From assembly GCA_030141605.1 (NCBI GenBank), contig JAQGDQ010000437.1, positions 1 through 64,000 of the forward strand: a stretch of 64,000 nt of DNA. Reading direction: 5' to 3'. The notes beneath the pieces are model-generated. The model was not told where the DNA came from, did not search any database, and saw only the letters and a program-made list of their open reading frames with translations. This DNA comes from Tubiluchus corallicola. Taxonomy: Eukaryota; Animalia; Priapulida. This document shows positions 329 to 62,256 of the stretch, piece after piece. How positions within the stretch are numbered: the first letter of the stretch is position 1; each line of letters starts with the position of its first letter. Both the position numbers and the translations under genes were made by a program.

Positions 329-46823
<46,495 letters not shown>

Positions 46824-51978: not shown

Positions 51979-52469
51979 AACTGTATTTCTGTAGTAATAA
52001 GTCTTTCACATTAGTCATTCTTTAAAAAATAGTATGTTACCTTTCATTATGTTAAAGAGTAGAGTGTTTTGACCTACATTTTAAGATTGGGTCCGGTTTT
52101 GCTTTAATGTGAGTGATAGTGGCAGGACCAACACGTAGTTCATTGTAAATATCAATGCTCTGAGATGGGACAGCAAATCTGCCTGAAACAGCTTAGTCAC
52201 GTGTGAATGCGCTATATCCTCCCTCTACCAGGCAAGCAGTTCGGGGCAGATGTAACTGGTAGATAGATAGGCGGTCACCTATTTATCGACCATGCTCAGT
52301 GTTGGCTTAATTACATCTCCCTCGGAACTTCCCGAACACACCGAATTTCAAGTGGCGAAGAAATATTTCATAAGCTTTATTGTTTAGCAGGTCTAAATTT
52401 AGAAAATAAACAGCCTTGTTTACAGCATTCAAATTAATAAATAGTTGCAAATAAACAAGACGCTTTTAA

Positions 52470-52930
52470 CCCTTTCAGGCCCAAATTAGTTTTTAACAAG
52501 AAAAAAATTTTTGGCTTGCTACTTTTGTTCAGTATATCCATCATGTTTACACATAATAATTATTTTTTTCTACCTGTGCCCGCGTGTTAAATATAGCCTG
52601 TATCCCACGGGATACATTGGGATTCAATGGAATCATAAAATGTGCTTCATTTTGCAACTGCTGATAATTTTTTAAAGTATTTAAGACATTTAGTATGCAC
52701 GCTATACTGATCTGTACAAAGTCGTCTCTAAAGTACTGTACCTTGCGCAGTTTTTTTTATGCTATGTAGATTTTCTAGTTTGCCATTTTATCACCATTTT
52801 TAGTCTATTGTTATTGGCTTAAATCAAAATAACTATTAACAGATCAAATAACTGTCACTTTTAAAATTTTATTAATTTTAAAGGCAGAAAATATTCTCGT
52901 ATCCCACGGGATGCAACGGGAATGAAATGG
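52470..52930 (-). mobile_element. piggyBac-like MITE, copy 4
   Basis: Reverse complement of 5914-6372, TTAA flanks, one mismatch in the TIR. Confidence 0.85.
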
Positions 52931-53282
52931 TTAAGTTAGGGAGATTTTCTTGCTTGATGGGTTCAATCTTGAATTCATCATTCGTCACATTTTAATTTCT
53001 GCTACTGGTTGTACCAGCCAGTTAACGAACGTGATTAATCACAGCACAGCCATTAAAATCCTATCATTGCATGTATTTCTGCTCTGTGGTTATCAAATCA
53101 AGATAATGACTGGTTAAACGAACAATCTTTGATTAAGTGTTTGTGACTAAATTTTGACAATATTAATCACAGTGACAGTGATTAATTCTCTTAAAATTCT
53201 CTTTTCTATACATATATTATACATATATACATTCTTTTTAATGTCAGACCTAAAGACGCCCAGACCGACAGCTAAATGTGAA

Positions 53283-58100: not shown

Positions 58101-58250
58101 GCTATGCCTTCAACAAATACTCAAAAAAGTAACTGTCATGTTAATCATAAGCACGAGTCGTGCAGACACACGTATAATGCTAGAGGACAAGTTGTCTTCA
58201 ACAAATAATACTCAAAAAGAAAGTGTCATGTTAATCAAGGGCATGAGTTG
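55120..58250. repeat. 52-54-bp satellite (about 46 copies, 55250-57675) flanked by older, about 91-bp units
   Basis: Unit CAAATAATACTCAAAAAAGTAACTGTCATGTTAATCAAGCGCATAAGTCATAA; flanking units carry CACTAGARGACAAG at 57724, 57816, 57907 and 57999. Confidence 0.97.
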
Positions 58251-58399
58251 CATTCCTGGAATATAATACGAAAGAAGCTGCCACACTATTCATTATCTCA
58301 AAGAGTTTTGAATAACTCTGAAATAAGCATCTGTCAGTGGTGCACTTCTGTGAGGACTTGACAGACTCGACAAAGCACTCTCACTCCAGCCTCCTTTTG

Positions 58400-58575
58400 C
58401 TACAAACTTGGAAGATTTTCATCTATATAAAGAATTCGTCTCCAGTGATTGGTCACCCATCCTTTGGCTCTGGGCTTCTGATCCGGTTGTACATTCCTCT
58501 GTATCTCTTGGATTAACTCATCCTCAAATTCCTTGATATCCGGTTGAAGAAGCCCTGTTGGAGATGGAACTTTAC
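58400..58575 (-). CDS. Probable terminal coding exon of the ANK-cGLR gene
   Basis: Pyrimidine-rich acceptor tttctcactcgttaccttcgtctag. Phase matches the donor TCAG|GTTCGT at 59378. Reads (G)KVPSPTGLLQPDIKEFEDELIQEIQRNVQPDQKPRAKGWVTNHWRRILYIDENLPSL*. Confidence 0.7.
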
Positions 58576-59378
58576 CTAGACGAAGGTAACGAGTGAGAAA
58601 CTGAATGGTTTCATCTCAGAGAAACAGAATTCATCAAGTTTGAAAAATTCGTCACAAAATTTTGTATAACTTACATGCCGTCTTATTTCATACGGATCTT
58701 GCATTAGCAGTAATGTGGTGTAAAACCTGTAAATTTAGACCCCCATGATGATAATTAAGTGCAGCCATTTTTGCAGTCATTTATTGAGTAAGAAATCCAA
58801 GCAAGTTCATATAACATTATATAAAGTTCGAAAAATAATCAGAGCATTGTTAGTGCACACTGCACACATTAAGCAGACATATAAAGTACTTTACCTTATC
58901 AGTAAGCTTAATAAAATGCTTTTTGATAAGCCAGTGGTGTATGGTACATGCTGGAAATATTTGGTACATGCTGGAAAGGTGAGTCAGTGACGTTTTATCA
59001 GTTGGCATGAACATTTTAAATTAAGAATTTTCTTTTTTGAGTTACATAAGTCTTTCAAACAGCTAACTGTAATGCTAAGCAATGTTACTTTGTATGGCAA
59101 GCTTTTGGCTTTAAAACTTTCTTTCCTTCCCCTCTAAACCTAATTGCTTGGACAGAACATGTCTCAGGTTAATGAACATTTGCAAGCTTTTAGATTCTCG
59201 CTTGGAAAATGTATTACCTTCTGTGCCATATCGTCAACACCACATCTATGATAACCTACTATGTTCATTTCAGAGTTGAATATGCAAAAGAAATATGGTT
59301 AAAAAAACCAAACATGCTAAACAAAATAATGTCACAGCAACTTTGAAAAATAATTATAGAAAAAATAGTTATACGAAC

Positions 59379-61923
59379 CTGACTGGATTAAACCAGCTAT
59401 TGCACCAGCACATTTACTTGCTAAAACCAATATTGATATGCTGTTGATCCGTCTCTGCTTCAGATCTTCAAAGACATTTAGATGTGGCACAAATGGATGC
59501 GGCATTCGTCCTTCGTCACAACAGTCCTTGACGTAGCGAAACATGGACACTGCACGACTTCTGAGCTCCACTTCCCCACACCATTTTTCGGGATCTGGTA
59601 CAATTATTGCCTCTCTGATAAATGCCAGCTTGATCATATATGAATCGATCACCTCATCTGGTTCGTATTTTAGGATCGTAAAAAGTTTTGGTAGATTTAC
59701 TTTTGCTGCCAATAGATACATTTGTTCGACTTTTGCATCACCTCCTATCAAAAACTTCTTTTCCGACGACAACATTGCCGTTATTCTCTCGTAGTGTGAC
59801 TTGCCCCCATAAAGATTCGGTTTTACCAAAATCTTAGCGAGACGTGCTCCATCTTTGATTCTATCATCAAGTTCACGAATAAATGCAGCCTCAGCTACAG
59901 CCATTGATGCTGTGCAACTGAAACGTTCGTCTTTACCCTTACCCAGTGGCTTTGGCACAAAATGAAAACATCTAACGGAGTTAGGCCAGACGTCATTGAC
60001 ACCAGGCGGCTCTCTAGTACTTTCAAAACATGGAGTAACATCCACCGATATGGGAACTGTTTCACCACAATCCAGCTTCACCAATAGTTTAAAACATGTA
60101 CAAACTTTGTTCCATTCTACAATGTATGGAAAGGCGTTGGGCGATATCTTTTGGCCTTTCAGTTTTAACACCCTGGCCATTGCATTGCACAGTGATTTTG
60201 CAAATCTTTCTTTGAGAACTAATGGCTCTAATGGTTCATCCAAGTTGCCACTAAAAACCATAGCAGACACCATGTTTCTTTTACTCAAAACCTCGACAAT
60301 TCGACTGATTCTCACCTTTCTTGCCTTTTTCCTCCTGACGACAAGCTCACCTTTTTTGACGATGACAAAAAAATCAAACTCGTCTGGTAGTCCAACCTTT
60401 ACATCACAAGCTGAACTACCGACCATCACAGGTTCACAGTGCAGATTTGAAAGTCGAGTAATCGTTTCACAAACATTTTCTAATAAATCTAATACCTCTT
60501 TACGAATTTCGTGAAAGACGTCATATTGCTGCAATTTTCCAATTTCTGGCAGGTGCATGATGTCTGCCAATTTCATCTGACTGCGTAGGCCTACATAGTT
60601 GCTTTTAAGCAATGCAGTTTGTAGACAGAGCAGCAGATGGATACAAAACCCAATAATTAATGCATAATCACGTGTAAGTGCTCTGTAGTTGCTCTCGGTA
60701 ACCAAGGATGCCATTTTTGTATTTTGTCTCCTCATTAAAAGATCTGTCCACAGAAATAAGAGCAAAAAGCTGAAAATGTGAAAGAGCGTCAAAGACGATC
60801 TGCCGCGAAGTGAATTGAAATACCTGTAAGTAAGTAGCACACCTGCCGCTTTCTTTTGCGATTTGTATATTGGTGTTTTACCTTTAGTTTTAGTGCACAC
60901 GTCGTATACTGTTTTATTTTCGTAGTTTTTTATTTTATAGTCGGCACCATTGTCTAATAAATACACCACAGTCTGTATGCTTGAGCCAATGTTGTGCGCA
61001 TTGAAACAGGCAAGGTGAAGATTTGTGTTTCCCTGTATGTTTACAGTGTTAACGAGTTTTTTCACATTGTTATTCTGTTGGTTAGCAGTTTGCTCGCAAA
61101 ATATGTTAATCACATCAACGTTACCCCATTTGCAGGCTAAATTCAAAGGCGTTTCGCGTAGATAGTTCTTCGTGTAGATGTTTGCACCGTTATCGATGAG
61201 AAATTTTACGACGTTTGCGTGTCCTTCCCATGCTGCGTGGTGCAGGGGCGTGTTACCACGGTAGTTTTTTGTGTTAACATCTGCACCATTTCTCACTAAC
61301 TTTTCAACAATGACCAGGTACCCTTTCTTGGCTGCGTCATCCAATGCGGTTGTATTTTGAATGTTTTGCAAGTTTATTTGTGCACCATGTCTAATGAGCA
61401 CCTCAGCAACTTCCGGCTGACCGCACCATGCTGCCTGGTGCAACGGTGTACTATCGTCATTCACTTGTGTGCACTGAATGTTAGCACCATGCTCTAGCAG
61501 TGTTTCTACGACATCCGCATGTCCTTTCCTGCACGCAAGTTCTAATGGTCTCCAGCCATTGTTTCTTGTACTCTCTATTTCTGCACCCATATCTAGTAAT
61601 TTATTGACCACATCAACGTGACCCATGGCAGCAGCTATGTGAAGTGGAGTGCCGCCTTTTTCTTCAAATTCATAACGCATTCTGTGCATCTCAGAAGTGC
61701 AGTCGATTTTTGCTCCATTTCTAATCCACTTCTCCACGTCTTCCACTTGTCCGGAGTAAGCTGCTTTTATCAGGGCATTGTCATGAGCTTTCTGCTTGTC
61801 TTTTGGTGTTTGTGTTTTACTATCGTGTCTTTTCCTTGGCATGAAGTTGTCCTCATTGCACGTTACGGCTGCAAAAGTAGAACTTCGTATTCTGACACCA
61901 GCCACTAAATCTGCAGGTTCCAT
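59379..61923 (-). CDS. Ankyrin-repeat + Mab-21/cGAS-like nucleotidyltransferase (cGLR-type) protein, main coding exon (the unspliced ORF continues to a stop at 59332)
   Basis: 863-aa ORF with 8 ankyrin repeats (GxTPLHxAA..G...V..L...GA), two hydrophobic stretches, NTase motifs VGSSACDVKVGLPDEFDF and ISVDVTP, and Mab-21 C-lobe motifs SYMIKLAF and MPHPFVPHLNVF. ATG in gcaATGG context. Confidence 0.9.
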
Positions 61924-62256
61924 TGCTACTTTTCAACAAAGTGAAAGCTTTAAAGTGTCTCTGCCATTTCTTCTTTTAGAGATGTTTGAGCAGCAAGTGC
62001 CTAACGAGTTTATAACCTAGAAATATGGCTTGATACGTTCCCTGAAAAAAAGATGTCTTATTGCTTTCGCTACAGTGTAAGTTTAAGAAAAGCATAATTA
62101 TATGTACTTGCGTAAGTACAATGCAGTATACCATCAACTCTGAAATGCATGCTACGTAAAACAGCAGGCTTCATATGCTAAAGACAAAACATGCCATAAT
62201 CATTATTATTAAAAAATCTTCATACTGATTTTCTTCACTGCAATGTTAGAAATTTA

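What the first reader, a model, noticed from the sequence alone, without database searches (positions are those of the whole stretch)
58400..61923. Ankyrin-repeat + two hydrophobic helices + catalytically intact cGAS-like NTase: candidate membrane-anchored cGLR immune sensor
Seen: 8 N-terminal ankyrin repeats; two hydrophobic segments (LTLFHIFSFLLLFLW, about 60749-60793; YALIIGFCIHLLLCLQTALL, about 60607-60666) joined by a short polar loop; then a Mab-21 fold with the G-S loop and acidic triad (GSSACDVKVGLPD-E-F-D ... SV-D-VTP) and C-lobe motifs SYMIK and PHPFVPHLNVF. No vertebrate-cGAS Zn-thumb is evident. Established: cGLRs (cGAS/Mab-21 family) make cyclic dinucleotides upstream of STING, and ankyrin-fused cGLRs occur in invertebrates. 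Inference: a two-helix hairpin would anchor the protein in a membrane with both the ANK and enzyme domains cytosolic. That would be a receptor activated by a protein or membrane cue rather than free nucleic acid. I do not recognise this architecture as characterised.
Basis: partly seen in the sequence, partly recalled or inferred. Interest (0 to 1): 0.85.

Follow-up and report, generated by a model that had tools for sequence, protein, structure and literature searches.

The report
Ankyrin cGAS-like enzyme, private greasy linker
This animal gene joins ankyrin repeats to a cGAS-like immune enzyme with intact catalytic residues, a build already catalogued, and the two water-repelling stretches in its linker are missing from every relative found, are likely translated, and would at most make a weak, untested membrane tether.

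Summary
The architecture is real. A minus-strand gene (61923-59379, plus a last exon 58575-58400; 906 codons) encodes eight ankyrin repeats and a Mab-21/cGLR domain with G502-S503, E515, D517 and D628 intact. The modelled fold matches oyster Cv-cGLR1 (Z 23.9). It nests in an ankyrin-cGLR clade with a Priapulus protein already listed in the cGLR catalogue of Li et al., so ankyrin plus cGLR is known.

The two hydrophobic segments lie where stated, but they are a private insertion of about 52 residues. The linker is 102 residues against 45-54 in 9 of 10 clade relatives, and none of those 10, nor 22 distant genomic relatives, has a hydrophobic linker. Splicing them out needs weak sites or removes conserved residues, so they are probably translated (about 75%); RNA could not test this. 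As membrane helices they are marginal: insertion energy near zero, no charge bias, no conservation, low model confidence.

A membrane-tethered active cGLR remains possible (about 25%) and appeared in none of six paper-search listings. Activation by a membrane cue has no support.

The parts
59379..61923 (-). Main coding exon, ATG at 61923; ankyrin repeats, linker and nearly all of the cGLR domain in one open frame (whether the linker holds introns is untested)
60889..61806 (-). Eight ankyrin repeats and a short ninth element, residues about 40-345
   Evidence: Pfam; model helices; ankyrin fold matches
60799..60864 (-). Capping helix, residues 354-375, conserved in the clade (G361 invariant); runs past the GT at 60823
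   Evidence: (pLDDT 82-93 for residues 351-370)
60748..60792 (-). Hydrophobic segment 1, residues 378-392; private insertion
   Evidence: KD19 1.91, best insertion sum -0.1 kcal/mol; absent in relatives
60667..60732 (-). Polar loop, residues 398-419; likely the remnant of the family's normal linker
   Evidence: the best-scoring linker variants keep this loop in frame and drop both hydrophobic segments; residues 397-419 hold 5 K/R and 2 D/E
60607..60666 (-). Hydrophobic segment 2, residues 420-439; private insertion
   Evidence: KD19 2.30, best insertion sum -0.44 kcal/mol
59379..60570 (-). cGLR / Mab-21 domain (nucleotidyltransferase core and helix bundle), residues about 452-848
   Evidence: Pfam; PDB sequence hit 8gjy E 0.0025; fold match 8gjw Z 23.9, rmsd 3.2, 318 aligned
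60373..60420 (-). GS loop and first two catalytic acids (G502, S503, E515, D517)
   Evidence: invariant in 11 of 11 aligned; coordinates
60268..60351 (-). Basic stretch, residues about 525-552, low model confidence; not basic in relatives
60031..60048 (-). Third catalytic acid, D628
   Evidence: invariant in 11 of 11 aligned
58576..59378 (-). Predicted last intron, 803 nt, GT..AG
   Evidence: inferred from homology of the next exon, not from RNA
58400..58575 (-). Predicted last coding exon, ends at TAG 58402-58400; total 906 aa

Best explanation
This gene encodes eight ankyrin repeats joined to a cGAS-like domain with its catalytic residues intact, and it likely works as an ordinary ankyrin-fused cGLR that would make a cyclic dinucleotide for STING-type receptors, while a private, likely translated pair of hydrophobic helices would add at most a weak membrane tether. 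Shown: the domains, the catalytic residues, the place in the ankyrin-cGLR clade, and that the helices are an insertion of about 52 residues found only in this gene. Inferred: the ankyrin arm gates the enzyme and a ligand releases it; the enzyme then joins two nucleotides, most likely into 2'3'-cGAMP, the commonest product in the screen of Li et al.; the hairpin enters a bilayer from the cytosolic side with both domains left in the cytosol, because no hydrophobic leader precedes a large folded ankyrin block. The tether would be a recent add-on to a soluble design, not the basis of a distinct receptor class.
For: Domains and fold. G502, S503, E515, D517 and D628 are invariant in 11 of 11 aligned.

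Clade: in a quick tree of 40 rows, P0001 is sister to P0002 (SH-aLRT 99) inside an 11-row clade (99) that holds P0006 = XP_014668761.1. That protein is in Tables S1 and S2 of PMC9980059 as an ankyrin cGLR.

Private insertion: linker 102 aa against 45-54 in 9 of 10 relatives (208 in P0011, which has extra ankyrin-like motifs there); linker KD19 at most 1.07 in 10 of 10. BLASTP against P0002 puts gaps of 28 and 24 residues at or beside the two segments.

Likely translated: (a) 73-codon open frames are only 1.4-2.1% of non-coding windows here. (b) Only 3 of 209 open linker models (208 spliced, 1 unspliced) use only sites scoring 0.5 or more, the lowest score among 16 sites inferred from homology; two of the three leave segment 2 and the third cuts the linker to 3 residues. 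(c) The usable donors at 60842 and 60823 cut into the conserved capping helix. (d) In 17 of 22 distant genomic relatives ankyrin-like motifs and the enzyme lie in one open frame. (e) The shortest gap between the neighbouring Bicaudal-C exons found is about 1.2 kb.
Against: No activity, ligand, product or location was measured. The helices are marginal: best insertion sums -0.1 and -0.44 kcal/mol on a recalled position-independent scale, each has a His and other polar residues, and K/R counts are 3, 5 and 3 for N-flank, loop and C-flank, so no positive-inside bias. Residues 828-846 reach the same KD 1.91 yet are a confident helix of the enzyme fold, so the threshold is not specific. Residues 377-462 have pLDDT under 50, so the model says nothing on packing. 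A two-intron reading gives a family-length linker of 45 or 52 aa. Both segments are T-rich (0.46, 0.39) like the last intron (0.35). Three of the four best acceptor-like sites among 170 AG in the frame lie at this linker. The splice scores rest on recalled, approximate matrices.
Confidence: 0.4

Rival explanations
1. The hydrophobic segments are read-through introns, and the real protein is an ordinary soluble ankyrin-cGLR. The best version is two short introns, 60823-60744 (80 nt) and 60671-60581 (91 nt) or 60671-60602 (70 nt), around a 72-nt exon read in another frame.
For: These give linkers of 45 or 52 aa, inside the family's 45-54. The first intron's sites score 2.0 and 2.3, within the range of the homology-inferred sites (donors 0.5-8.2, acceptors 0.8-4.9). 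The segments are T-rich while the loop is A-rich like exon DNA.
Against: The second intron needs a donor of -0.2 and an acceptor of -0.8 or -5.2, below all 16 reference sites. Profile scores are 55.7 and 58.0, not above the unspliced 59.2, whereas clean 50-codon deletions reach 62.8. 209 of 983 models are open, so a fitting GT..AG pair is easy to find. Both introns would have to be stop-free and sum to a multiple of three by chance.
Confidence: 0.22
2. The insertion is translated but is not a membrane anchor: it packs on the protein, lies on a membrane surface, or is a tolerated accident in a gene copy under relaxed selection.
For: No conservation in any relative, marginal energies and no charge bias. 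T-rich non-coding DNA of this window gives one such segment in 12% of stop-free draws. Of 7 differences in near-identical contigs of run X1, 5 change the amino acid and 2 do not, which shows no clear purifying selection, though the count is tiny.
Against: The 906-codon frame and all catalytic residues are intact. The X1 contig over 60427-60771 has 2 differences and no gap. Two segments together are rare by composition alone (0.05-0.42%).
Confidence: 0.23
3. One reading: a selected two-helix anchor makes this a membrane-bound receptor switched on by a protein or membrane cue instead of free nucleic acid.
For: Two hydrophobic helices of membrane length with a 22-residue polar loop, placed in the one flexible linker where a hairpin would leave both domains on the same side. 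Membrane-attached Mab-21 folds exist (ITPRIP family; PMC6550788 passages).
Against: One gene copy only, with no relative that shares the feature. Nothing points to the kind of ligand. The enzyme half is basic (pI 8.8-8.9), as would suit nucleic acid.
Confidence: 0.15

Closest known systems
Ankyrin-fused cGLRs catalogued by Li et al. (PMC9980059), in particular Priapulus caudatus XP_014668761.1 (P0006)
   Same: N-terminal ankyrin repeats, capping helix, cGLR domain with GS/E/D/D, the WNKVC motif, same clade; about 31% identical in the enzyme half. P0006 is in Tables S1, S2 and S4.
   Different: Linker 102 aa with two hydrophobic segments against 48 aa and polar. A basic stretch at 525-552. XP_014668761 had no hit in supplementary file 3, which I take to be the screen list, so it appears untested.
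Characterised invertebrate cGLRs with structures: Cv-cGLR1 (PDB 8gjw) and cGAS-like receptor 1 (PDB 8gjy)
   Same: Same two-lobed fold: Z 23.9, rmsd 3.2, 318 of 346 aligned, 17% identity; sequence hit to 8gjy E 0.0025.
   Different: The solved chains are 346 and 376 residues and match only the enzyme half; here ankyrin repeats and the linker insertion are added. Ligand and product here are unknown.
Membrane-attached Mab-21-fold proteins: ITPRIP, ITPRIPL1/2, MiD49/MiD51
   Same: Mab-21 fold on a membrane. ITPRIP has a predicted TM segment and sits at the outer nuclear membrane (PMC6550788 passages). They belong to the cGLR superfamily (PMC10732462 passages). ITPRIPL2 clusters were low-score feature leads (0.79).
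   Different: They have no ankyrin repeats and, as I recall (not from a call), one anchor near the N-terminus and degenerate active sites. Here the anchor would be an internal hairpin on an enzyme with intact acids.
Vertebrate cGAS
   Same: Fold, GS loop, three acids, the S-Y-x-x-K helix motif (recalled).
   Different: No zinc-thumb cysteines (sequence; motif recalled); ankyrin arm instead of an unstructured N-terminus.

Membership tests
cGLR (three criteria of Li et al., PMC9980059 section 5) | Active site: GS loop, two acids, third acid, each flanked by hydrophobic residues | tested here: met
   G502 S503, 11 residues, E515 F D517 F, V627 D628 V629
cGLR (three criteria of Li et al., PMC9980059 section 5) | Literal motif: Q or T before GS, and 50-90 residues before the third acid | tested here: inconclusive
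   V before GS and a spacer of 108. The catalogued member P0006 departs in the same way (V, 97), so the authors' list does not enforce the letter
cGLR (three criteria of Li et al., PMC9980059 section 5) | Homology over both the nucleotidyltransferase core and the helix bundle | tested here: met
   Mab-21 26.2 and Mab-21_C 31.1 bits, cut-offs 24.1
cGLR (three criteria of Li et al., PMC9980059 section 5) | Predicted structural match to known cGLRs | tested here: met
   AlphaFold2 model (mean pLDDT 73.7, pTM 0.69, 11 sequences) against 8gjw: Z 23.9, rmsd 3.2, 318 aligned
cGLR (function) | Makes a cyclic dinucleotide on activation | not testable with these tools
   needs a biochemical assay
cGLR (function) | A STING receptor in the same genome | not testable with these tools
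   no genome is held; unreviewed notes on the same genome mention STING-domain fusions, a lead only
Ankyrin-fused cGLR | Ankyrin repeats N-terminal to the cGLR domain in one protein | tested here: met
   one open frame; Pfam; clade with P0006
Two-pass (hairpin) integral membrane protein | Two segments hydrophobic enough to insert | tested here: inconclusive
   KD19 1.91 and 2.30; insertion sums -0.1 and -0.44 kcal/mol; a non-membrane helix of the fold also reaches 1.91. No TM predictor was available
Two-pass (hairpin) integral membrane protein | Positive-inside charge bias for a cytosolic N- and C-side | tested here: inconclusive
   K/R 3 + 3 on the flanks against 5 in the loop
Two-pass (hairpin) integral membrane protein | Hairpin conserved in relatives | tested here: not met
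   0 of 10 clade relatives and 0 of 22 genomic loci; the nearest relative is only 33-40% identical, so close orthologues were not seen
Two-pass (hairpin) integral membrane protein | Segments present in the mature mRNA | tested here: inconclusive
   indirect tests favour retention; no direct RNA test was possible
ITPRIP / MiD49-51 type membrane Mab-21 proteins | Single anchor near the N-terminus, no ankyrin arm (recalled) | tested here: not met
   no hydrophobic window of KD 1.5 or more before residue 378; ankyrin repeats fill residues 40-345
Vertebrate cGAS | Zinc thumb with one His and three Cys before the SY-x-x-K helix (recalled) | tested here: not met
   no Cys in residues 715-760

The most novel reading that the evidence does not exclude
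A catalytically active cGLR that has gained an internal two-helix membrane anchor between its ankyrin arm and its enzyme. It would be held on the cytosolic face of an organelle and make cyclic dinucleotides locally, beside STING-type receptors: a membrane-tethered active member of a family whose membrane-bound members are thought to be pseudo-enzymes.
Probability: 0.25. Interest if true: 0.72.

Novelty: new variant of a known kind. Interest (0 to 1): 0.4.

Why it matters
Ankyrin-fused cGLRs are catalogued across invertebrates, but I saw no report of their ligand or product in the passages read. If the hairpin is real, this gene is a natural with-and-without pair against its hairpin-free sister P0002 for asking whether location on a membrane changes what a cGLR senses. 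It would also be an example of a membrane anchor gained by insertion of T-rich DNA into a linker. If it is spliced out or not inserted, the gene is one more member of a known class.

Tried and rejected
Genome: none is held for this window, so paralogues and STING could not be searched.

RNA: no RNA holder listed; this blank is no evidence. Run X1 is of unknown kind. One of its contigs runs unspliced across the predicted acceptor at 58576 (58118-58666), so its contig across 60427-60771 cannot be read as mRNA. X1 may also be the window's source sample. X2 laid only 2 partial records on the stretch. The X1 joint 60132-60365 is non-canonical with a 22-base side and was set aside as a paralogue match.

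Protein searches: the search for shorter proteins with residues 310-640 scored none of 1,666 candidates. The near-length search gave 2 of 7,994 scored. The ESM Atlas gave only sub-0.9 leads for residues 340-863 and no usable hit for 350-470. The weak Colicin_V match on residues 374-449 (E 0.082, under the cut-off) was read as hydrophobicity, not homology.

Structure: the single-sequence model was too poor beyond the ankyrins (mean pLDDT 39). Foldseek rows shown were filled by ankyrin matches.

Origin of segment 2 by a 90-nt tandem duplication: not supported, 440 of 2,000 codon shuffles scored as high.

The two strongest donor-like sites in the frame (60350, 60315) have no usable in-frame acceptor: 9 of 10 score -3.6 or less, and the tenth would delete part of the core.

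The careful tree did not finish; the quick tree is quoted, and fragments P0012 and P0013 were left out for lack of the motif.

Papers: six searches (listings and abstract starts only, up to 25 rows each of 5 to 67 papers) showed no title or abstract on a membrane-anchored active cGLR. Table S2 of PMC9980059 had no hit for five membrane terms, but it lists conserved-domain hits, not TM predictions. The figure supplement (with Fig. S2A) was too large to read and table cells are cut at 400 characters, so the catalogue's own sequences were not screened for hairpins.
Full report
The sequence. The window is animal DNA, rich in tandem repeats (17,300 of 64,000 bases masked), with a many-exon Bicaudal-C gene on the minus strand from about 46.8 kb down to 0.3 kb. 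The finding is an 863-codon open frame from the ATG at 61923 to a stop at 59332. A GT at 59378 and an AG at 58576 join it to a last exon that ends at 58400 and gives 906 residues. That exon matches the C-terminus of relative P0013 (46% over 26 aa, E 3e-6), so the splice is inferred from homology, not from RNA.

Domains. Pfam finds ankyrin repeats (Ank_2 E 1.3e-60), Mab-21 (26.2 bits) and Mab-21_C (31.1 bits), the last two above their 24.1 cut-offs. An AlphaFold2 model built on 11 sequences (mean pLDDT 73.7, pTM 0.69) has eight ankyrin helix pairs and a capping helix at 354-375. Its enzyme half matches oyster Cv-cGLR1 at Z 23.9, rmsd 3.2, 318 of 346 residues. G502, S503, E515, D517 and D628 are invariant in 11 of 11 aligned proteins. 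The literal motif of Li et al. is missed in two details, V before GS and a spacer of 108, but a catalogued member misses it the same way (V, 97).

Relatives. A full HMMER scan with residues 360-863 gave 17 hits. Ten are full-length ankyrin-Mab-21 proteins sharing a WNKVC motif, 26-35% identical over the alignment. Four of the ten are named Priapulus caudatus proteins and six are unnamed; at this distance the window's organism cannot be named. One, XP_014668761.1, is in Tables S1, S2 and S4 of PMC9980059 as an ankyrin cGLR. That paper states that some cGLRs carry ankyrin modules (section 5 read). In a quick tree of 40 enzyme domains, P0001 is sister to P0002 (SH-aLRT 99) inside an 11-row clade (99) holding XP_014668761.1. 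Ankyrin plus intact cGLR is therefore a known class.

The hydrophobic segments. Both lie at the stated places, with KD19 means of 1.91 and 2.30. They are private. The linker from G361 to G462 is 102 residues, against 45-54 in 9 of 10 clade relatives, and linker KD19 is at most 1.07 in 10 of 10. None of the 17 hits has any window of 1.9 or more (highest 1.73). A metagenome scan confirmed 22 of 130 candidate stretches as more distant relatives; in all 22 the stretch before the enzyme has KD19 of 1.01 or less. Against the sister P0002 the excess falls into gaps of 28 and 24 residues at or beside the two segments. The feature was thus gained on the branch to this gene.

Intron or exon? For introns: both segments are T-rich like the last intron; 3 of the 4 best acceptor-like sites of the frame lie at this linker; and two short introns would restore a family-length linker of 45 or 52 residues. 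For exon: the usable donors (60842, 60823) cut into a helix conserved in the clade and modelled at pLDDT 82-93. Removing segment 2 while keeping a family-like linker needs sites scoring below all 16 reference sites. Open frames of 73 codons are 1.4-2.1% of non-coding windows. In 17 of 22 genomic relatives ankyrin-like motifs and enzyme share one open frame. The Bicaudal-C exons found are 1.2 kb or more apart. The splice matrices are recalled and approximate. I put retention at about 75%.

Membrane anchor? Two such segments arise in 0.05% of draws from the protein's own composition and 0.42% from stop-free non-coding composition, but in 36 of 1,275 overlapping open non-coding frames of this window, at about four places. 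Best insertion sums are -0.1 and -0.44 kcal/mol, which is marginal, and K/R counts of 3, 5 and 3 give no positive-inside bias. A helix of the enzyme fold reaches the same KD 1.91. The model leaves residues 377-462 under pLDDT 50, so packing is not tested. The geometry allows a hairpin, since it sits in the family's flexible linker. Membrane-attached Mab-21 folds are known (ITPRIP family; passages of PMC6550788, and PMC10732462), and PMC2794190 notes that only some Mab-21 members keep catalytic residues (passages). I put insertion at about even odds if translated.

Mechanism. Most likely it works like other cGLRs: a ligand relieves a resting state and the enzyme makes a cyclic dinucleotide, most often 2'3'-cGAMP in the screen of Li et al., for STING-domain receptors. 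Gating by the ankyrin arm is inference. The enzyme half is basic (pI 8.8-8.9, highest of the 11) with a basic stretch at 525-552, which fits nucleic acid or anionic lipid. Unreviewed notes on the same genome report STING-domain fusions; I could not check them. Seven differences in near-identical contigs of run X1 are 5 amino-acid-changing and 2 silent, too few to judge selection.

Verdict. Observation confirmed; interpretation partly supported. It is a member of the known ankyrin-cGLR class with a single-gene linker insertion that may be a weak membrane tether. Six paper searches showed no listing of a membrane-anchored active cGLR, and passages of bioRxiv 10.1101/2025.09.04.674280 mention transmembrane segments only for STING. 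The catalogue's sequences were not screened for hairpins. Interest 0.4; the novel case has probability 0.25 and would merit 0.72.

Noticed in passing
window 46830-300, minus strand: A Bicaudal-C (BICC1) gene: KH-domain exons near 46.7, 25.5, 24.1, 7.3, 3.8, 2.45 and 0.4 kb, running off the window's low end. Used only as a source of reference splice sites.
   Followed up: partly
window 24260-24100, minus strand: The acceptor and first part of one Bicaudal-C exon are duplicated head to tail (about 76 nt), giving a decoy acceptor just upstream of the full exon.
   Followed up: no
window 60351-60268, minus strand: A basic, low-confidence stretch inside the enzyme core that holds the two strongest donor-like sites of the frame (60350, 60315) with no usable in-frame acceptor; it could bind nucleic acid or anionic lipid, or allow a non-productive splice.
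   Followed up: partly
window 60440-60281: Run X1 has several contigs that match only the GS/DEFD motif or differ by about 7%, which suggests further cGLR paralogues in that sample.
   Followed up: no
window 62042 and 61967, minus strand: An acceptor-like site at 62042 suggests a 5' untranslated intron; a five-codon upstream frame starts at 61967 before the main ATG.
   Followed up: no
window residues 382 and 429 of the frame (60780 and 60639, minus strand): Each hydrophobic helix carries one His on a narrow polar stripe; whether they face each other is unknown.
   Followed up: no
P0014, P0015: Distant relatives of over 2,200 aa with two ankyrin-plus-Mab-21 units and a MYND finger.
   Followed up: no
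window 5910-6377, 15100-15560, 20191-20660, 52465-52934: A dispersed repeat of about 470 bases, 93-94% identical, in four copies on both strands.
   Followed up: no
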